Below, piece after piece: positions 1-7,153 of a stretch of DNA of 24,850 nt. The notes under the pieces were generated by a model that had not been told where the DNA came from, did not search any database, and was given only the letters and a program-made list of their open reading frames with translations. The stretch lies in IMG/VR virus record IMGVR_UViG_2565956726_000010, one strand, 5' to 3'. Source of the stretch: a virus. Its lineage: Duplodnaviria; Heunggongvirae; Uroviricota; Caudoviricetes. The number at the start of each line of letters is the position of its first letter. Position 1 is the stretch's first letter. The position numbers and the translations under genes are program-made.

Positions 1-288
1 TTAACGGATCAACATCCAGATCAGCAGACACGCCACCACCGGCACAGCAAAATCCATCAGGCTTGCCACATCCCACACGCGCGGATCAAAACCGCCCCAC
101 CACGGCATGTTAATCCTCTTGCCATGCCCAAACATTTCAATCCAGCGATATTCTGCCTGGGTGTGTTCACGCGCAATGAAGAACGTACAACCGGCTATCG
201 CACCGTAAGCCCAGTTTCCGGTAAAAAGACCAGCCAGTACCTGCACCGCTACGGCACAAAGCGCATGAAGTATCGACGTGATATCCAT
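1..288 (-). CDS. small integral membrane protein, function unknown (95 aa)
   Basis: ATG at 288..286 preceded by AAGGA Shine-Dalgarno about 6 nt upstream; stop TAA at 3..1, exactly at the window edge; two to three hydrophobic segments (ILHALCAVAVQVLAGLFTG, MDFAVPVVACLLIWMLI); starts 9 nt after the stop of the 298..576 gene, same strand. Confidence 0.45.
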   Translation of the reverse strand: MDITSILHALCAVAVQVLAGLFTGNWAYGAIAGCTFFIAREHTQAEYRWIEMFGHGKRINMPWWGGFDPRVWDVASLMDFAVPVVACLLIWMLIR

Positions 289-297
289 CTGCTATCC

Positions 298-576
298 TTA
301 AAACCACTCCCTGAGCGGGCGCTCTGGTGTAACCACCCACTCACGGAACACGGAATCATCAAATCCATCGTCAAGAAGACGGATATTAACAAAGTACCCT
401 TCGTTTCGCGTGTATTCTGGTTCTCCGTCATCAGAAACATCTGTCTCCCTGAACGTAAAACCAATCTCATCAACCAGAACGGCATTCTGCAGCTCTTCGT
501 CCTCTTCCCAGTTAAGTTTCCTGAGAAATGCCCTGAAATCTGCTTTATCACTGAAACGCAACGTGAAATCTCTCAC
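298..576 (-). CDS. small highly acidic protein, function unknown (92 aa, GTG start)
   Basis: GTG at 576..574 overlaps the stf stop codon (GTGA) and has a strong GGGGAGG Shine-Dalgarno 7 nt upstream; no internal Met; Asp/Glu-rich with few basic residues; occupies the position where lambda carries tfa but has a different size and composition. Confidence 0.45.
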   Translation of the reverse strand: MRDFTLRFSDKADFRAFLRKLNWEEDEELQNAVLVDEIGFTFRETDVSDDGEPEYTRNEGYFVNIRLLDDGFDDSVFREWVVTPERPLREWF

Positions 577-2636
577 TCCACAACCTCCCCAAGCTGCGCA
601 TCTGTTAGCTCTTTATGCCAGAGACGAAAATTCCTCACATGCCCAAATAAATGGCGTAATCCTGCTGTAGTTTGTCCACCAATGCGAATGGTTGCTGTAC
701 TCCGGATATATTCCCATTTGGTTTTAGTTTCGCTGCTTAACTTACCGTTACTGACTACACATGTGGACCGTTCGGACTTTACCCGCATACCAATAAGCAT
801 TTTTTCCAGCCCGGCATTTTCATTTATTCGTCGGTCTGAACCACCTATATCGCAATACGGAAAACCGTCGTACCCACCTGATGAACCAAACCCCATTACG
901 ATCCCCGCATCTGCCTGATGCCGGTATGTGTCAAAAACACGCGGTGCTGCATTTGGCGTTTTATACCAGTTCTTATGTACCTCACAAAGAACCGTAAAAG
1001 GAAGATTATAAAGATTATTCTTAATCGGAACTGTAACCATATCGCTTGCCCGCGTTACCGGTGCCGTCCCCGTAACAATAAAAGATGATGCGCCTGTACC
1101 AGCCTCAATCTGTGGAGTGGTTACATCGAGATAATCCCCTGATGCAACCATCTGCCCTGTATCCGGAGAATACTGGACAAAACCACCAACCGTATTTTCT
1201 GTTGTATCTGCTTTTAATGTAGCCTCAAAAAATATCCAGCCAGTTGCATCATCCTTAACAGACCTTGCTGTAACACGGCTTGTCTGACCTGTCTTGCTAA
1301 TTATGCGGGTGGTAAGGTTCAGGTTTGCTGCTCCTATTGATGTCCTTACCTCCCCATCATAATGTTCAAATAAAATACGAACGGCGATATTATCAACTTC
1401 ACTTTTTACCCGACAGGATATAGTTACATGCTTTTCGTCCCCTGAAGTATCAACCCCTCCGGTACTCGAATACAGTCCGATAATGGTATGCGCTTTACTT
1501 GTACCAACAATCGAATCCTGTACGACAAACCGGCCATAATTAAACCCGAAACTATCTGTGCCTGTTTCTGTAACGTCCAGTGAAGTTGACTTATTCCACT
1601 TCGAAGGGTCTGTACTGTTCTGGAAGAAGTTCGTTCTTTGTCCCTCAATAAGCAGGCCATCACACTCAAATCGTGGCTCATTAATTTCCGCCGTTTTCAG
1701 TTCGCCAGATTTGTTGATATATGTTGCCGTTGATGCGCGACTGAAATTAATCTGTTTATCACTGGCAACCTGAACCACATTATCGCCAATCTTCACTTTT
1801 TTATAACCCGGAGAATAGCCCGTAATCATATCCAGCGAATCATTAAAGGGTATCCACACATCCGGCAGCGGCTGTAAAACATATCTGTACGGCTCTGCTG
1901 TCTGGTTTGCGTATTCTCTGGCAGCATCTTCACTTGCTTTTGCTGCCGTCTGGCTTGCTGCCGATGCTTTCGCCGAGTTCGCCGCCGCTGTTTCGCTCAC
2001 CTTTGCGTTGGCTTCACTGTCTTTGGCATTCGTCTCACTGGTTTTCGCTGCCGTCTGGCTGGATTTTGCGTTTTTTTCGCTGGCCTTTGTGGCTGTCTCG
2101 CTATTTTTCGCGTTGGTTTCTGATTTTTTGGCTGCTGTCGCGGAGTTTGCCGATGCAGTCTGCGAGGCCGCTGCCGCCTGTGCGCTGTTAGCTGCATTCG
2201 TTTCTGAGGTTTTCGCCGCATTCTTCGATGAGGCTGCTGCCGTTTCGGATTTCTTTGCCGCCGCTGCACTCTGTGATGACGCTCCGGCATGACGTGCCAC
2301 TTCATTCACCATCAGCTCAAAACGGCGCAGTGCCTCCGGACGAACATCATCCTCCGTCATGGCGCCGAGAAAATCATTCAGCGTACCTGGTCTGGAACCT
2401 TCATAGACGGTAATGGTCCCGGCATGTGAAGGTGGAAAACCTTCAACCAGCAGGGTGACGCTGTACTGGCCATACTCAACATCCATGCTGTAACGCCCGG
2501 CTTCATCCGGATTTTCAGAGGCCACCGTGTTCACCACCACCGTGCTGCTGGTCCGTCTGGCCTTCAGCACAATGGTGCAGTTCTGTACTGGTTTTCCTGT
2601 GCCATCTTTAAGCACGCCAGAAATTTTTACTGTCAT
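573..2636 (-). CDS. stf: side tail fiber protein (lambda Stf-like N-terminus, Ala/Ser/Thr-rich repeat shaft, non-lambda C-terminal domain)
   Basis: N-terminus MTVKISGVLKDGTGKPVQNCTIVLKA... is near-identical to my recollection of lambda Stf; ATG at 2636..2634; C-terminal ~450 aa unlike lambda and ending in a motif (VRNFRLWHKELTDAQL) resembling the C-terminal signature of LamG/concanavalin-like jellyroll domains. Confidence 0.9.
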   Translation of the reverse strand: MTVKISGVLKDGTGKPVQNCTIVLKARRTSSTVVVNTVASENPDEAGRYSMDVEYGQYSVTLLVEGFPPSHAGTITVYEGSRPGTLNDFLGAMTEDDVRPEALRRFELMVNEVARHAGASSQSAAAAKKSETAAASSKNAAKTSETNAANSAQAAAASQTASANSATAAKKSETNAKNSETATKASEKNAKSSQTAAKTSETNAKDSEANAKVSETAAANSAKASAASQTAAKASEDAAREYANQTAEPYRYVLQPLPDVWIPFNDSLDMITGYSPGYKKVKIGDNVVQVASDKQINFSRASTATYINKSGELKTAEINEPRFECDGLLIEGQRTNFFQNSTDPSKWNKSTSLDVTETGTDSFGFNYGRFVVQDSIVGTSKAHTIIGLYSSTGGVDTSGDEKHVTISCRVKSEVDNIAVRILFEHYDGEVRTSIGAANLNLTTRIISKTGQTSRVTARSVKDDATGWIFFEATLKADTTENTVGGFVQYSPDTGQMVASGDYLDVTTPQIEAGTGASSFIVTGTAPVTRASDMVTVPIKNNLYNLPFTVLCEVHKNWYKTPNAAPRVFDTYRHQADAGIVMGFGSSGGYDGFPYCDIGGSDRRINENAGLEKMLIGMRVKSERSTCVVSNGKLSSETKTKWEYIRSTATIRIGGQTTAGLRHLFGHVRNFRLWHKELTDAQLGEVVE
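1919..2285 (-). repeat. in-frame tandem short repeats encoding an Ala/Ser/Thr/Lys-rich low-complexity shaft inside stf
   Basis: Protein residues ~118-240 are iterations of units like AAKTSETNA / AKKSETNAKNSE; the DNA shows repeated gcttctgaaac / gccgctgc-type units; spurious ORFs appear in several frames on both strands here. Confidence 0.6.
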
Positions 2637-2649
2637 ACTTTTCCACCAA

Positions 2650-2683
2650 TAAAAAAAGCCCGCAGCAGTGACGCCACGGGCTT
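2650..2683 (-). terminator. putative intrinsic terminator between lom and stf
   Basis: Minus strand reads AAGCCCG-(14 nt loop)-CGGGCTT followed by TTTTTTT, about 100 nt downstream of the lom stop and just upstream of the stf start. Confidence 0.4.
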
Positions 2684-2787
2684 CAGGACAGTGTAACTTT
2701 ACGTTTCCTCAAACGCAGTTCACCCCATAAGGCGGATGAACCTGCGTATCATAACAATATTTACAGAAGATAAATCGGCGTCTGTTG

Positions 2788-3387
2788 TCAGAAACGGTAT
2801 CCGATACCAACAATAAATGCATCCGTTCGCCAGTCGCCACTGCCGGAGCCTTCATAAGCAATATCAATGGCCACGGATTCGGTCGGGTTAAACTGCACGC
2901 CAGCTCCCCACGCCAGAGAGGTATTGCTGTGGCGACCGTCATCACTTCCGGTCAGCACGTCGTGCGTTTTCCCCTTGTTGTCAGTTACGCGGAGATAATC
3001 CCCGGAGAAAGTCGACACACGGCTGTAAGCCACACCCGCGATCGCATACGCGCTGAACCATTCATTCACGCGCACAGACGGCCCCGCCATCACGCTGAAC
3101 CAGCGGTTACGCACGGAATCTTCATGCCAGCGGGTATCGCTGTAATGCGTTTTTTGCTCATCTTTGGCATTGGCATAACTGAATGACGTCACCAGCCCCA
3201 GCGTGTCCGTAAATTCATAACGGTATTTCACGTTAATGCCCTTCAGGTCATCGCTGCCTGGCATATCAGTATGGGTCTGAAGATACCCGGCGCTTAGTGT
3301 GGACTGATGCTCTGCTGCGCTCGCTGGCGTACCAGCGGCGACCAGCCAGACTACTGTGGACAGAATAACAGCACATAATTTACGCAT
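2788..3387 (-). CDS. lom: Lom outer membrane protein (Ail/Lom/PagC family beta-barrel)
   Basis: 199 aa with N-terminal signal peptide (MRKLCAVILSTVVWLVAAGTPASA), C-terminal aromatic terminus (...GIGYRF) typical of OM beta-barrels; same position as lambda lom between J and stf; ATG at 3387..3385. Confidence 0.9.
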   Translation of the reverse strand: MRKLCAVILSTVVWLVAAGTPASAAEHQSTLSAGYLQTHTDMPGSDDLKGINVKYRYEFTDTLGLVTSFSYANAKDEQKTHYSDTRWHEDSVRNRWFSVMAGPSVRVNEWFSAYAIAGVAYSRVSTFSGDYLRVTDNKGKTHDVLTGSDDGRHSNTSLAWGAGVQFNPTESVAIDIAYEGSGSGDWRTDAFIVGIGYRF

Positions 3388-3454: not shown

Positions 3455-6400
3455 TCAGCTAATCGTGATGCCTGCAGTGGCTTTCTTCATCACAACAACC
3501 AGCAAATCGCTGATACTTGCTGTGGGATACCAGCCATTTACCCACCATGCTGATACAGAAAACTCCAGCGTCATGTCGCCGCGACCAGCAGGCATATCAA
3601 TAACACCACTGTAAACCAGCGTATTATCCATCGCGGTACGGTTATAAATTTCAGCACCGTTTTTCTTCACTATCAGGCGGCATGACGAATAAGTATCGCT
3701 GTTCTCCCGCTCATGTCTGGCACCGCTGAAAGCCACCGCCGGAATAACAATCTGCCGGTTAAACGGCTGATCGTCATAAACCCTGACGGTAATGGTTCCT
3801 GATGGCCAACGCTTCGGTGCACGGGAGTCACGAGGGAAAGCCTTACCCACTGTTTTAACGAGATCGCCTTCAATCTGGTTTGCAGACAGTTTCCCTCTGA
3901 TGACACAGTTCTCGTTAATGGTGACATTATTGAGCGTGCCGGTATTCGCCGTGATGGCTCCACTGATATCCGCATTGCGGGCTGTCAGCCTGCCATCCGG
4001 CGTCAGGGAAAACGTCGGAGGATTGCCGGATGACGTGATGCTCACCGCAAACAGTCGCTTCAGGAACACGTCGTTCATGAACAGCTGATTCCCCTGCGCC
4101 ACAAACAGCGGCGTGGTGTTGCCGTTCTCCGGGGTAATCATCGCAATGCGATCGGCCTGCAGCAGAATGTTACTCAGGGTCTGACCATCAACATCCTCAA
4201 TCCCCGCACCAATCCCGGCCACATAGGGAATACCGTTTTTTGTTTTCTGCACCTTCAGCATATACATGGCATTCAGCTCATTGCGCGTGTCTGACTGAAC
4301 CCGCTGGATTTGCTGTATGGTCACGGCCTGGTCACCCAGCTTTTTATCCGTGGTCGAGGTAATTTCACTCCCTTTTTTATCCACGTACTGGCGGACCTGT
4401 GCTATCTGTCGGGCGTTTTCTGACTGCCCCTGGCTGACAGTCTGTGAGATTTCACTGCTCACCCGGTCCACTTTCTGGCTCACCTGCGCGATGGCCAGTG
4501 TCTGATCCTCATTCTTTTTCGCAACCAGCTGCGTGAGGCTGTTTTCCGCCTTCCCGATTTTCCGGGTCACTTCTGCGATATCCGTGTCCATCCGCTGACG
4601 GATATCTTCTTCCAGTTGCGTGACCTCCGTACGCAGCGCTGAAGCATCAATGCGCTCTTTCAGTGCCTGACCCAGAAGCGTCTCATCTATCAGCCCCCGG
4701 AAAATTTCCAGATACCCTTCACCATCATTGCTGGGCTGCCCGCTGGCTTCCACAAAAGCAGATTTTCCCACCAGGTTGACGCTTCGCACGTAAAACCAGA
4801 AATCCGTCCCCGGCTTAATCCGGCTCCCCTGGACAGTCCACTGACTGCCGGTCCCCAGATAACGGGCAGATTTTTCCACCTGTGCTGTGTTCGTGATGCG
4901 TTTTTCTGAGAACCAGAATTCAAACTGTACCGTCGGGTCATACACCGCAAGACGCGGGACCGCCGTTATCTGAAAATACCCCGGCGTCAGCTCAATGGTG
5001 GCGGGTTTTGCAGGTGCGTTAATCCGGAACGATACCGACGCCGGATCGCCCTGCTGTCCCCGGGCATTTACCGCCCGGACCGTCAGCGTGTAACGCCCCA
5101 GCGCCAGCTGCCTGAAGCGGTAAGTGGTTTCCGCCGTCCGGGCCGTGCTGACCAGCCGCTCACTGCCGTCATCCGCTGTTACGGTCAGACGGAGCAGGAA
5201 GCTCACGCCCTTCACCACCTTCGGCGTGTCCCAGCGCGCCAGCACCTGATATTCCCCGCTGTCTGCGGTGACTTCGGCGGTCAGGTGCTGCACCGCTGGC
5301 GGCGTGACACCATTCACCGTGCCGCTCTGGTCGCCGTCAAAGTGCGCTCCGTTATCCACGATGGCCTCTTTTTCCGGTACATGCTGCACGGCGGTGATGG
5401 CATACGCACCGTCATCGTTCTCCCGGATACTCACACAGCGGAACAGGCGCTGGCGCAGCGTCGGCAGCTTCAGCCCCCACACGCTGTATTCGGCAACGCC
5501 GTCAGGAATACGGCTCACTTTCACCTTCACGCCGTCGGTGACGGACTGGACCTCCACGCTGACCGGATTCCCACTTCCGTCAACCAGGCTTATCAGCGTG
5601 GTGCCGGAGGATGACAGCATGATTTCACGGTCGAGCGTCAGCGTCCGGGTCTGGCTGTTCACCGCCAGCACGCGCCCGCCGGTGCTGATACCGGCATAGT
5701 CATCATCACAGATTTCAATGACATCGCCCGGAACATGGCGAAGCCCTTCTGCGCCGACGCTGAAGTCCACGGTCTGCGTTTCCAGCAGTTCTGTTTTAAT
5801 CAGCCACAGCCCGGCGCGGTGTGCCTGCCCCCGGCTGGTACAGCCAAAGGCATCCATCTTCGTGACGTTACGACCGTAACGGGCAATGGCCTGCGTGTCC
5901 TCCACAAGCTCTGTTGCCGTCTCCCAGCCGTTATCCGGGTCAATCCAGTTCACCTCAACGGCATTATGGCGGTCCTTCAGGGCGCTGAAGCTGTAGCGGA
6001 ACGGCGCGCCATCATCCGGCATCACCACATTACTGCGGTTATAGGTCCACACCTTATCCGACGGTCGGTCCTGCACGAACGTCAGCGTCTGCCCGTTCCA
6101 TACCGGCATACAGCGCATCGCCGAGCAAAAATCACTGAGCACATCCCACGCCTTGCGCTGTGTGGTCAGGTACGCATTACAGGTGATGCGCGGCTCCGTG
6201 CCGCCAAAGCCGTCCGGCACTGACTGGTCGCAGTACTGGCCGATGACATACAGCGCCCATTTATCCACATCCGCTGCACCAAGACGTTTCCCCATGCCGT
6301 AGCGCGGATGGGTCAGCATATCCCACAGACACCAGGCCATGTTGTTGCTGTATGCCGGTTTAAACGTTCCGTCCCAGATACCGCTGTATTGCCGCGTCTG

Positions 6401-7153
6401 CGGGTTATAATTCGACGGCACCTGCAGAATACGCCCGCGCAGATGATAATTACGGCTCACCTGCTGGCTGCCGAACTGTTCCGAGTCCACCTGTACGCCG
6501 ACCAGTGCCGTGTTCGGGTAGCACTGTTTCACATCGATGATTTCGGTGTATGACGACCAGAGCGTTTTGTTCTGCAGCTGGTCTGTGGTGCTGTCCGGCG
6601 TCATCCTGCGCATCCGGATATTGAACGGGCGCGGCGGCAGGTTATCCACCACCACCGAGGCCAGATACTGCGAGGTGGTTTTGCCTTTAATGGTGATGTC
6701 TTTTTCCGTCACCCAGCCACCATTACGCTGTATCTGAACCAGCAGGCGGACTTCCGACGGATTCCGGTCACCCTTTGAGGTGGTTTCCACCAGTGCCTGC
6801 ACACCGAAGGTAAAGCGCAGACGGTCGATGTTTGCCGACGTGATGGTGCGGGTGATCGGCGTGTCATATTTCACTTCTGTACCGAGCACCGTCTCGGAGC
6901 CGGAGGATTCAAAACCTTCCGGCGGTGTCTGCTCCTGCTCACCTGCCCGGAACACCACCGTGACGCCGGAGATGTTGGTATTCCCCTCACTGTCCAGCAC
7001 CGGCGTACTGTTCAGCAGCACGCTTTTTAATCCATCCACCGGACCTTCAATCGGCCCTTCGCTGATGGCATCAATCACACTCAGCAGTTGCGTGGACTTC
7101 AGGTTGTCCTTCGCTTCGCGCGGGGTATGCCCCTTACTGCTTCCTTTGCCCAT
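3455..7153 (-). CDS. J: tail tip / host specificity protein J (central fiber)
   Basis: 1232 aa; N-terminus [54 protein letters not shown] matches lambda J as I recall it; about 100 aa longer than lambda J (1132 aa) with an extra coiled-coil-like segment and a divergent C-terminal ~150 aa. Confidence 0.95.

What the first reader, a model, noticed from the sequence alone, without database searches (positions are those of the whole stretch)
1..576. Acidic 92-aa protein plus small membrane protein replace Tfa downstream of the tail fiber gene
Lambda-type side tail fibers are normally followed by a ~190-aa Tfa assembly chaperone. Here stf is followed instead by a strongly acidic 92-aa gene whose GTG start overlaps the stf stop, with an excellent GGGGAGG ribosome-binding site, and then 9 nt later by a 95-aa polytopic membrane protein with its own AAGGA site. 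The acidic protein could be a new fiber chaperone, or a DNA-mimic-type anti-restriction or anti-defence factor. The membrane protein could be a superinfection-exclusion or receptor-masking factor, a function often encoded next to receptor-binding genes. The window starts exactly at the stop of the membrane gene, so what lies beyond is unknown.
Basis: partly seen in the sequence, partly recalled or inferred. Interest (0 to 1): 0.65.

Follow-up and report, generated by a model that had tools for sequence, protein, structure and literature searches.

The report
Tail-fibre accessory gene plus membrane cargo gene
Two small genes after the side tail fibre gene of an E. coli lambda-like prophage are real and widespread: one is an uncharacterised partner of a particular fibre type found in many phage groups, and the other is a separate, highly conserved membrane gene that temperate phages carry behind their receptor-binding genes.

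Summary
On the minus strand, stf (2636..573) is followed by a 92-aa acidic gene (576..298). Its GTG start overlaps the stf stop. A 95-aa three-helix membrane gene follows (288..1). No Tfa is present.

The acidic protein belongs to an unnamed family (phrog_1361) with no Pfam entry, no Tfa homology and no close solved fold. In every locus where the preceding gene could be read, it overlaps by 1 or 4 nt the end of a fibre gene. That fibre carries a ConA/LamG-like distal module related to the RcGTA head-spike fibre. The pairing occurs in lambdoid prophages and in T1-like, T5-like, rV5-like and Dhillonvirus virulent phages.

A second, self-chaperoned short fibre often follows. Its conserved N-terminal peptide tracks the acidic subtype. 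The acidic protein is therefore a fibre accessory, either an assembly partner or a branch-point adaptor. It is not an anti-defence DNA mimic.

The membrane protein (phrog_1443) is an independent module. It is absent from the virulent coliphage loci examined. It sits behind unrelated receptor-binding genes in temperate phages, such as a P22-like tailspike, a P2-like Tfa and a giant J. It also occurs on Aeromonas and Leclercia chromosomes, and its interface loop is invariant. A superinfection-exclusion or lysogenic-conversion role fits its position but is untested.

Both families are uncharacterised. Interest is moderate.

The parts
573..2636 (-). stf, side tail fibre, 687 aa. The N-terminal tail-attachment domain covers aa 1-131. 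An Ala/Ser/Thr-rich shaft covers about aa 115-250. The distal ConA/LamG-like module covers aa 256-686 (nt 576-1871).
   Evidence: Pfam phage_tail_N scored E 2e-68, and NCBIfam GTA_spike_fiber scored E 4e-19 on aa 329-530. PDB 9e7m 'Tail fiber protein' matches aa 1-94, and the RcGTA head spike fibre 6tb9 matches aa 297-545. There is no similarity to the lambda Stf C-terminal part, orf-314. The protein has no Peptidase_S74 domain.
298..576 (-). Acidic 92-aa fibre-accessory gene (phrog_1361). Its GTG start overlaps the stf stop as GTGA.
   Evidence: Supported. The AlphaFold2 model has pLDDT 91 and is an alpha/beta sandwich with a low-confidence tail carrying the near-invariant P87 and invariant R89 and W91. 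In 23 fetched loci the start overlaps by 1 or 4 nt the stop of a fibre gene. The gene is under purifying selection.
584..590 (-). GGGGAGG ribosome-binding site for the acidic gene. It lies inside the 3' end of stf, 7 nt before the GTG.
   Evidence: Read directly from the sequence.
1..288 (-). 95-aa three-helix inner-membrane gene (phrog_1443), ATG 288..286. Its stop codon occupies window positions 3..1.
   Evidence: Supported. Twenty-five of 95 positions are invariant across 30 homologues at 55-89% identity, including the loop REHTQAEYRWI..MPWWGGFD. The AlphaFold2 model has pLDDT 94. RefSeq annotates the identical CDS.
295..299 (-). AAGGA ribosome-binding site for the membrane gene. It overlaps the acidic gene's TAA. 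The two genes are separated by 9 nt.
   Evidence: Read directly from the sequence.
2788..3387 (-). lom, an Ail/Lom outer-membrane moron lying between J and stf (context only).
   Evidence: Pfam Ail_Lom scored E 2e-127.
3455..7153 (-). J, the central tail fibre / host-specificity protein, 1232 aa (context only).
   Evidence: ORF list. RefSeq annotates it as gpJ in the identical locus.

Best explanation
The two genes are separate modules attached to the end of the receptor-binding operon.

(1) The 92-aa acidic protein is the dedicated partner of a portable fibre cassette.
- The cassette's main fibre ends in a ConA/LamG-like, polysaccharide-binding distal module instead of the lambda-type Stf C-terminus that needs Tfa.
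- The protein is made in step with the fibre by translational coupling.
- It most likely binds the fibre trimer through its conserved face and its invariant C-terminal P-x-R-x-W tail. A possible contact site is the start of the distal module, about Stf aa 250-330.
- There it helps the fibre assemble. Where a second short fibre gene follows, it forms the socket for that fibre's conserved N-terminal peptide, so it acts as a branch-point adaptor.
- In this window no second fibre is present, so only the fibre-partner role would apply.

(2) The 95-aa protein is cargo, a moron-type gene, and not a fibre part.
- Temperate phages park it immediately behind whatever receptor-binding genes they have.
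- It sits in the inner membrane.
- It acts through an invariant polar cluster and membrane-interface loop on some conserved host component.
- The most likely effect is to change the cell's susceptibility to further phage infection, by superinfection exclusion or lysogenic conversion, rather than to mask one receptor.

What is shown: gene structure, family membership, synteny, coupling, selection and fold models. What is inferred: the binding partners, presence in the virion, and every functional effect.
For: Acidic protein:
- The family is found directly after a fibre gene and overlaps its stop by 1 or 4 nt in every locus where the preceding gene could be read. These comprise lambdoid prophages and phages, three metagenomic or prophage relatives, and T1-like, T5-like, rV5-like and Dhillonvirus phages.
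- In all 13 fibres that were compared, the upstream fibre shares at least part of the window Stf distal module. Examples are 33% identity over aa 256-686 in a 1711-aa fibre, and phrog_5939/1419 hits in Comamonas and Pantoea.
- These fibres have neither Tfa nor an S74 intramolecular chaperone.
- The second fibres that follow in many loci do carry Peptidase_S74. They share an N-terminal peptide, MAT.T.IP.DI..LK, across lambdoid, T1-like and T5-like phages. Another peptide, MA.RID, pairs with a different 100-aa acidic subtype.
- In lambdoids the acidic subtype tracks the presence of the second fibre, not the distal 150 aa of fibre 1. L006 against the window shows 43% acidic identity against 79% distal identity (81% against the near-identical PhiR49_2). 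L007 against L005 shows 90% against 39%.
- Stf aa 253-332 is 93-100% identical among the type-C loci compared (L006 against L008 and L010), while the rest diverges to about 30% between L006 and L010.
- Purifying selection persists in loci without a second fibre, with dN/dS 0.27-0.38.
- The residues R89 and W91 are invariant and lie in a low-confidence tail.

Membrane protein:
- It is absent from the virulent coliphage loci examined that carry the fibre cassette.
- It lies after a P22-like tailspike in the slot where P22-like phages carry gtr genes. There it follows a 9-bp-stem terminator and a promoter-like site (gtr slot per doi 10.1101/2021.06.09.447823).
- It lies after the Tfa gene and before the sheath gene in phiHAP-1, after a giant J in Comamonas, and after a tailspike or DUF4376 proteins in Leclercia and Pantoea.
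- The same trio of LamG-type fibre, small protein and membrane gene recurs in Comamonas kerstersii and Pantoea.
- The loop is invariant, and the polar residues H8, Q16 and D79 inside the helices are also invariant.
Against: - No interaction was tested, because AlphaFold-multimer was not available.
- The adaptor idea does not explain why the acidic gene is retained in types A and B (this window), in L061 and in L011, which have no second fibre. This is why a constitutive fibre-partner role is included in the explanation.
- Co-inheritance of the acidic subtype with the second-fibre N-terminus could reflect only where recombination breakpoints fall.
- For the membrane protein, orthologues sit at fixed non-prophage chromosomal sites in Aeromonas (next to pirin) and Leclercia. 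Conservation across alpha-, beta- and gamma-proteobacteria is also untypical of known exclusion proteins.
- In Comamonas and an Aeromonas phage the membrane gene lies next to lysis genes.
- The membrane protein's topology is ambiguous. The positive-inside rule places the conserved loop in the cytoplasm.
- There are no PADLOC, Pfam or PDB matches.
Confidence: 0.5

Rival explanations
1. The acidic protein is purely a folding or trimerisation chaperone for the ConA/LamG-like distal module. It would be a functional analogue of Tfa that is not retained in the virion and has nothing to do with the second fibre.
For: - It is always coupled to fibre 1.
- Fibre 1 lacks both Tfa and an S74 chaperone.
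- The gene is retained under purifying selection where no second fibre exists.
Against: - The acidic subtype does not follow the variable distal part of the fibre, the part a specificity-matched chaperone would be expected to recognise.
- It follows instead the presence and the N-terminal peptide type of the second fibre.
Confidence: 0.3
2. The acidic protein is a DNA-mimic anti-restriction or other anti-defence factor that merely sits next to stf.
Against: - It is a late gene whose start overlaps the fibre stop codon in every locus where the preceding gene could be read.
- It is confined to one fibre-cassette type across five phage groups, including virulent ones.
- The predicted fold is a compact alpha/beta sandwich, not an elongated DNA-like shape.
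- There are no PADLOC hits.
Confidence: 0.03
3. The membrane protein is a small envelope-modifying enzyme or regulator. It would act, for example, on LPS, O-antigen or lipid-carrier metabolism at the membrane interface. It would have been captured from a host gene and would give lysogenic conversion or a physiological benefit rather than blocking phage DNA entry.
For: - Polar residues inside the helices (H8, Q16, D79) and a fully conserved interface loop are invariant.
- Orthologues sit at fixed chromosomal sites in Aeromonas and Leclercia.
- In a P22-like phage it occupies the slot where gtr O-antigen conversion genes usually sit.
- It follows fibres and spikes that bind polysaccharide.
Against: - It has no similarity to any known enzyme family or solved structure.
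- At 95 aa it is very small for an enzyme.
- The chromosomal neighbours are not consistently envelope genes.
Confidence: 0.25
4. The membrane protein is lysis-related, for example a holin-like or antiholin protein or a lysis-timing factor.
For: It has three membrane helices and a typical holin size. In a Comamonas prophage and in Aeromonas phage 62AhydR11PP it lies beside phrog_3108 proteins and an Rz-like spanin. One homologue has a faint Phage_holin_8 hit at E 0.04.
Against: - It has no charged C-terminal tail.
- The conserved part is the loop, not the helices.
- In E. coli lambdoid and P22-like phages it lies at the fibre/att end of the genome rather than in a lysis cassette.
- Stable chromosomal orthologues exist outside prophages.
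Confidence: 0.1

Closest known systems
Tfa / Caudo_TAP tail fibre assembly proteins (lambda Tfa, Mu gpU, P2 gpG)
   Same: A small protein encoded immediately downstream of the fibre gene whose distal part it is thought to serve. It travels with that distal part as a cassette.
   Different: There is no sequence relationship: Pfam gave no hit and hhalign gave 0.04%. It is half the size and has a single domain. The fibre's distal module is unrelated to the Tfa-dependent one. The subtype does not follow the fibre tip.
Branched lateral tail fibres of T5-like phages DT57C and DT571/2 (LtfA carrying LtfB; PMC4728585, PMC10713586), and anchor-branch receptor-binding systems in which a second protein docks by a short conserved N-terminal peptide (the latter from my own knowledge of Klebsiella phage literature, not checked here)
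   Same: A first fibre is followed by a second, self-chaperoned (S74) fibre. Across unrelated phages the second fibre keeps only a short conserved N-terminus. T5-like phages such as IrisVonRoten and KookSpook carry the cassette at the LTF locus.
   Different: In DT57C, LtfA itself ends in an S74 domain, and text searches of both papers found no mention of a small ORF, chaperone or adaptor between ltfA and ltfB. Here a separate 92-aa protein sits between the two fibres. It is also retained when the second fibre is absent.
RcGTA head spike fibre Rcc01080 (PDB 6tb9) / NCBIfam GTA_spike_fiber domain
   Same: The Stf distal module matches this domain.
   Different: The module is used here on a tail fibre, with a coupled small partner gene. 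Whether RcGTA has a counterpart of the small protein was not examined.
Receptor-binding-gene-linked exclusion and conversion genes: Cor (phi80/N15/T1), Llp (T5), gtrABC (P22-like), Z/fun (P2), HK97 gp15 (from established phage literature; the gtr slot is also described in doi 10.1101/2021.06.09.447823)
   Same: The membrane gene sits directly behind receptor-binding genes, in the same slots these genes use: after the tailspike before int, and between Tfa and sheath. It is found mainly in temperate phages.
   Different: It is not a lipoprotein. It has no GtrA or other Pfam match. It is independent of receptor-binding-protein type. It is far more conserved than known exclusion proteins and has chromosomal orthologues. 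No exclusion phenotype is known.

Membership tests
Tfa / Caudo_TAP (PF02413) tail fibre assembly chaperones | Sequence match to the conserved Tfa N-terminal domain | tested here: not met
   Pfam gave no hit at E<=1. hhalign of the family alignment against lambda Tfa gave 0.04% probability.
Tfa / Caudo_TAP (PF02413) tail fibre assembly chaperones | Encoded immediately downstream of the fibre gene it serves | tested here: met
   The start overlaps the stf stop. The same is true in 23 fetched loci.
Tfa / Caudo_TAP (PF02413) tail fibre assembly chaperones | Required for folding or trimerisation of the fibre's distal domain | not testable with these tools
   This needs co-expression or deletion experiments.
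Intramolecular chaperone fibres (Peptidase_S74, PF13884) | S74 domain at the C-terminus of the fibre | tested here: not met
   Absent from the window Stf. Present in the second fibres of related loci.
phrog_1361 (acidic protein family, function unknown) | Full-length profile match | tested here: met
   E 1.1e-40, residues 1-92 against profile positions 1-92.
phrog_1443 (membrane protein family, function unknown) | Full-length profile match | tested here: met
   E 4.6e-57, residues 1-95 against profile positions 1-95 of 97.
DNA-mimic anti-restriction proteins (Ocr/ArdA type) | Strong negative charge | tested here: met
   pI 4.26, with 24 D+E against 12 K+R. The family as a whole has pI 4.1-4.8 in nearly every member examined; one truncated sequence gave 6.1.
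DNA-mimic anti-restriction proteins (Ocr/ArdA type) | Elongated DNA-like fold, and early or leading-region expression independent of structural genes | tested here: not met
Known anti-phage defence proteins (PADLOC-DB v2) | Profile match to any model | tested here: not met
   No hits at E<=1 for either protein or for distant homologues.
Class I holins | Three transmembrane helices, a charged cytoplasmic C-terminal tail, and location in a lysis cassette | tested here: inconclusive
   Three helices are predicted. There is no charged tail: the protein ends at R95 and the family averages 0.8 K/R after the last helix. The gene is next to lysis genes in two distant phages but not in this window or in the E. 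coli phage loci examined.
Cor/Llp-type lipoprotein exclusion factors | Signal peptide with a lipobox cysteine | tested here: not met
   There is no lipobox. C11 follows L10 and is not conserved in the family alignment.
GtrA-type O-antigen conversion proteins | Pfam GtrA-like profile match and partner gtrB/gtrC genes | tested here: not met
   None of 30 homologues matched such a Pfam profile. No gtrB or gtrC gene neighbours it.

The most novel reading that the evidence does not exclude
The 92-aa protein is the socket of a portable plug-and-socket branching system. It would clamp onto ConA/LamG-type lateral fibres and receive exchangeable second fibres through a roughly 20-residue N-terminal peptide (MAT.T.IP.DI..LK or MA.RID). 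The same system would be shared by lambdoid, T1-like, T5-like and possibly rV5-like phages.

Separately, the 95-aa protein would be a previously unrecognised, receptor-independent exclusion factor or tiny membrane enzyme. It would have been captured from a proteobacterial housekeeping gene and spread behind receptor-binding genes of many temperate phages.
Probability: 0.3. Interest if true: 0.65.

Novelty: new variant of a known kind. Interest (0 to 1): 0.45.

Why it matters
Fibre swapping is the main route to re-targeting phages and phage-derived delivery particles. It commonly fails when the right accessory gene is left behind.

If this 92-aa family is the obligatory partner of ConA/LamG-type lateral fibres, several things follow:
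- It has to travel with the distal module in engineered chimeras.
- Its socket could be used to hang additional receptor-binding proteins on a fibre.
- Annotation could improve. Every database record seen calls it 'hypothetical' or 'prophage protein', except one BASEL record that labels it 'tail fiber protein'. Two BASEL records label the neighbouring short fibre a 'chaperone'.

The membrane family has matches in about a third of complete E. coli genomes and has no known function. A defined phenotype, whether exclusion or envelope change, would explain a very common prophage cargo gene.

Tried and rejected
- Pfam, NCBIfam and PADLOC scans gave nothing for either small protein.
- Sequence search of the PDB with both family profiles gave only chance-level hits.
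- The BFVD search found only uncharacterised phage proteins.
- The afdb50 library was unavailable.
- The exhaustive HMMER search returned giant PKD-repeat proteins with up to 11 'copies' of the acidic domain. I judged these to be compositional (D-rich) matches, not homology.
- The search for related loci could not use the acidic alignment because it has no sufficiently conserved stretch.
- Literature searches by accession, PHROG and FIG identifiers found nothing.
- Papers on stf chimeras, on DT57C branched fibres and on the BASEL collection do not mention the small protein.
- The idea that the Aeromonas chromosomal neighbour was the Kdo kinase KdkA was rejected. It is a PA4780-type RIO1-like kinase. 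The two nearby lipid A acyltransferase genes lie on the opposite strand, so they are not in an operon with it.
- My first topology guess (N-out, loop in the periplasm) was withdrawn after counting charges over the family.
- TRF found no DNA tandem repeats in stf.
- Homology of the acidic family to the T5 collar protein LtfC was rejected at 0.2%.
Full report
**1. What is in the sequence**

On the minus strand the window carries J (7153..3455), lom (3387..2788) and stf (2636..573, 687 aa). These are followed by a 92-aa ORF (576..298) and a 95-aa ORF (288..1).
- The 92-aa ORF starts at a GTG that overlaps the stf TGA as GTGA. GGGGAGG lies 7 nt upstream.
- The 95-aa ORF starts 9 nt after the acidic TAA, with AAGGA overlapping that stop codon.
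- The 92-aa protein has 24 acidic against 12 basic residues and pI 4.26. The 95-aa protein is hydrophobic and is modelled as three long helices.

The identical DNA lies in E. coli SCU-172 at the end of a prophage, about 1 kb from zinT. RefSeq annotates both ORFs there as complete hypothetical proteins. The membrane ORF is therefore not a fragment of a host gene.

**2. Are they real genes?**

Both ORFs match full-length PHROG families of unknown function: phrog_1361 at E 1e-40 and phrog_1443 at E 5e-57.
- DNA similar to window 1-1200, which covers both small genes and the 3' end of stf, is found in 1909 of 5426 complete E. coli genomes. In 365 of these genomes at least 80% of it is present.
- Window 1-2700, which includes all of stf, matches 225 phage records, many of them through stf alone.
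- The exact proteins occur on at least 1000 and 679 contigs.
- Pairwise dN/dS is 0.27-0.55 for the acidic gene and mostly 0.12-0.3 for the membrane gene. Where synonymous sites are saturated, pN stays far below pS.
- Every database name seen for the window's own two proteins and their close relatives is 'hypothetical' or 'prophage protein'.

**3. Why there is no Tfa**

The Stf N-terminus is the usual prophage tail-fibre attachment domain (Pfam E 2e-68). It matches the fibre stub resolved in PDB 9e7m.

The distal 430 residues are a different module from the lambda-type C-terminus that depends on Tfa:
- NCBIfam GTA_spike_fiber scores E 4e-19.
- The RcGTA head-spike fibre 6tb9 matches aa 297-545.
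- Homologues hit Pfam Laminin_G_3.
- There is no similarity to lambda orf-314.

The fibre has no S74 intramolecular chaperone either. The 92-aa protein is unrelated to Tfa: Pfam gives nothing and hhalign gives 0.04%. 'Replacement of Tfa' is therefore a module swap, in which a new distal module arrives with its own small partner.

**4. The acidic family**

- A single-sequence exhaustive search found 56 representatives.
- A profile search found at least 250 clusters, mostly in Enterobacteriaceae (Escherichia, Leclercia, Enterobacter, Silvania) and in Comamonas. All are unnamed and none has a Pfam domain.
- Giant PKD-repeat proteins in the first list are compositional artefacts.
- Conserved positions are M1, D3, L6, F8, D36, I38, G39, G60, V63, N64, R66, R89 and W91.
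- AlphaFold2 gives a confident alpha/beta sandwich (pLDDT 91). The last residues, which carry the invariant R89 and W91, are low-confidence. A flexible tail with invariant residues is what a docking motif would look like, but this is inference.

**5. Synteny is the strongest evidence**

In all 23 fetched loci where the preceding gene could be read cleanly, the family member begins 1 or 4 nt inside the stop of a large fibre gene. Three further loci could not be scored in this way. Two hold a cut-off or disrupted upstream gene (L062, L009). In IME178 the annotated fibre ends 46 nt before the small gene.

In all 13 fibres that were compared, the upstream fibre shares at least part of the window Stf distal module.

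tblastn finds the family in 191 phage records. These are not only lambdoids:
- Drexlerviridae (KarlJaspers, PeterMerian, orkinos)
- T5-like Markadamsvirinae (IrisVonRoten, KookSpook, IME178)
- Vequintavirus (CarlMeissner and about 35 relatives)
- Dhillonvirus

A gene that is welded to one fibre type in virulent and temperate phages alike is a fibre accessory. It is not an anti-restriction or lysogeny gene.

**6. A second fibre and its plug**

In most lineages the small gene is followed 9-12 nt later by a second, shorter fibre of 196-715 aa.
- Those tested carry a Peptidase_S74 intramolecular chaperone, so they need no outside chaperone.
- These second fibres are unrelated to one another over most of their length.
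- They nevertheless keep a common N-terminal peptide, MAT(S/V/I)T(V/N)IPxDI(K/T)xLK, in lambdoid, T1-like and T5-like phages.
- A second peptide type, MA(N/L)RID, goes with a distinct 100-aa acidic subtype in a prophage and in T5-like IME178.

Within Escherichia lambdoids there are three acidic types:
- Type A is the type in this window.
- Type B is 63% identical to A.
- Type C is 43% identical to A.

Only type C is followed by a second fibre. The acidic type does not follow the distal 150 residues of fibre 1. L006 against the window shows 43% acidic identity against 79% distal identity (81% against the near-identical PhiR49_2). L007 against L005 shows 90% against 39%. Among the type-C loci compared, Stf aa 253-332 stays 93-100% identical, while aa 333-687 diverges to about 30% between L006 and L010.

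The conserved unit is therefore the fibre-1 neck, the acidic protein and the second-fibre N-peptide. The two receptor-binding bodies are exchangeable. This is the pattern of an anchor-and-branch junction. For comparison, DT57C LtfB is thought to hang on LtfA (PMC4728585, PMC10713586). However, DT57C LtfA ends in an S74 domain, and text searches of those papers found no mention of a small ORF, chaperone or adaptor between ltfA and ltfB.

**7. Limits of the adaptor idea**

This window (type A), type B, L061 and Comamonas L011 have no second fibre. They nevertheless keep the small gene intact, coupled and under purifying selection. Its primary partner must therefore be fibre 1.

I conclude that it is a constitutive partner of the ConA/LamG-type fibre, acting in assembly and/or as a structural cap, and that it additionally provides the branch socket where a second fibre exists. 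Whether it stays in the virion is unknown.

**8. The membrane protein is a different story**

Its family is much broader. There are more than 562 clusters, and genomic hits occur in Escherichia, Leclercia, Silvania, Pantoea, Aeromonas, Comamonas, Acidovorax, Sphingomonas, Halomonas and Desulfovibrio.

Twenty-five of 95 positions are invariant among homologues down to 55% identity. The invariant positions include the whole stretch R40-E-H-T-Q-A-E-Y-R-W-I50, the motif M61-P-W-W-G-G-F-D68, and the polar residues H8, Q16 and D79 inside the helices. The helices themselves vary. The positive-inside rule puts the conserved 34-residue loop (5.4 K/R on average) in the cytoplasm, but this is not firm.

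**9. Where the membrane gene sits**

It is absent from the virulent coliphage loci examined that carry the fibre cassette. In temperate phages it follows whatever receptor-binding genes are there:
- After stf, the small gene and the optional second fibre, in lambdoid and N15-like phages.
- After the tailspike and before int in P22-like Gally. There it is preceded by a 9-bp-stem terminator and a promoter-like site, so it looks like a separate transcription unit in the slot where P22-like phages usually carry gtr genes (doi 10.1101/2021.06.09.447823).
- Between the Tfa gene and the sheath gene in P2-like-tailed phiHAP-1. From my own knowledge this is the Z/fun moron slot of P2.
- After a 2520-aa J in Comamonas.
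- After a tailspike or DUF4376 proteins in Leclercia and Pantoea.
- The full trio of LamG-type fibre, distant acidic-family member and membrane gene recurs in Comamonas kerstersii and Pantoea.

It also sits at fixed chromosomal sites without phage genes in five Aeromonas species (after pirin) and in Leclercia. The neighbours there suggest no common pathway. In a Comamonas prophage and an Aeromonas phage it adjoins phrog_3108 proteins and an Rz-like spanin.

**10. Inference for the membrane protein**

It is cargo, not a fibre part. Its habitual address is the address of Cor, Llp, gtr and Z/fun. This favours a role in altering susceptibility to further infection.

Several features argue against masking of one receptor:
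- It is independent of receptor-binding-protein type.
- It is extremely conserved.
- It has host orthologues.

These features fit action on a conserved inner-membrane process, or a small membrane enzyme or regulator captured from the host. A lysis role is a minor rival. In this window it is probably co-transcribed with the late fibre genes, given the 9-nt gap and the absence of a promoter-like site on its strand. Whether it is also expressed in the lysogen is unknown.

**11. Verdict**

Both families are known only as hypothetical proteins. The acidic family is best described as a new, Tfa-unrelated variant of the tail-fibre accessory theme, with a possible branch-adaptor role shared across at least five phage groups. 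That is of moderate interest to phage biologists and of practical interest for fibre engineering.

Noticed in passing
L067 4770-5447 (KarlJaspers bas06_0035) and L074 3292-3987 (PeterMerian bas05_0029): These genes are annotated 'putative lateral tail fiber chaperone'. The KarlJaspers protein is 60% identical over its full length to the 234-aa short second fibres of lambdoid loci L010 and L063, which carry a Peptidase_S74 domain. Both proteins carry the MAT.T.IP.DI N-terminal peptide. They look like short fibres, not chaperones.
   Followed up: partly
L010 4286-4990 and L063 2292-2996: In the 234-aa second fibre the S74 autoproteolytic chaperone domain starts at residue 116. The mature protein would therefore be only about 115 residues, a docking peptide plus a short coiled-coil-like stretch. 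This is a stub fibre of unclear use.
   Followed up: no
L024 4484-4999 (Pantoea) and L033 4432-4998 (Comamonas thiooxydans): Here the acidic-family domain forms the N-terminal half of a 171-188-aa protein. The extra C-terminal domain of about 90 aa has no Pfam match. It lies directly between a LamG-type fibre and the membrane gene.
   Followed up: partly
L070 3789-3855 (phage Gally): A strong terminator-like hairpin (9-bp stem with a T run) follows the tailspike gene. A promoter-like site then precedes the membrane gene. This is a moron-like unit in the slot between tailspike and integrase.
   Followed up: partly
L004 6970-7521 and L072 2499-2996: phrog_3108 proteins (function unknown) lie in front of an Rz-like spanin in a Comamonas prophage and near the membrane gene in Aeromonas phage 62AhydR11PP. 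They may be an unrecognised endolysin family.
   Followed up: no
Phage records MG065654, MG065666, MG065655, MG065676 and others, and OR847733; locus L009: GenBank records named Campylobacter or Listeria phage encode the rV5-like acidic-family protein identically (100% amino-acid identity) to coliphage CarlMeissner, or (the Listeria record) a coliphage-type relative. A 'Collinsella' MAG contig carries E. coli prophage fibre genes. These are probably mislabelled or contaminated records.
   Followed up: no
L001 4921-6000 (E. coli SCU-172, just outside the window): About 1.08 kb between zinT and the membrane gene has no annotated gene. It is presumably the prophage end and attachment site. It contains one weak terminator-like site.
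   Followed up: no
window 2788-3387 (-): A full-length lom (Ail/Lom family, E 2e-127) lies between J and stf, as in lambda. It is a classic moron in the same operon.
   Followed up: partly
one search hits P0152, P0163, P0165, P0171 and others: Giant proteins of 745-2744 aa, made of PKD-like repeats in the three that were read (P0152, P0193, P0190), scored up to 1e-21 against the 92-aa protein with as many as 11 matched stretches. The shared feature is an Asp-rich beta-strand pattern (DxxGxxxVxVxDDDG). I judged these matches compositional rather than homologous.
   Followed up: partly
L003, L012, L018, L019, L021 (Aeromonas chromosomes): The membrane-family gene sits at a conserved site after a pirin gene. 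In the three loci where the downstream genes could be read (L003, L018, L021) it is convergent with a PA4780-type RIO1-like kinase gene of 286 aa. In L003, the only locus scanned, this is followed by two MsbB-like lipid A acyltransferase genes. There is no operon link, but an LPS connection was not excluded.
   Followed up: partly
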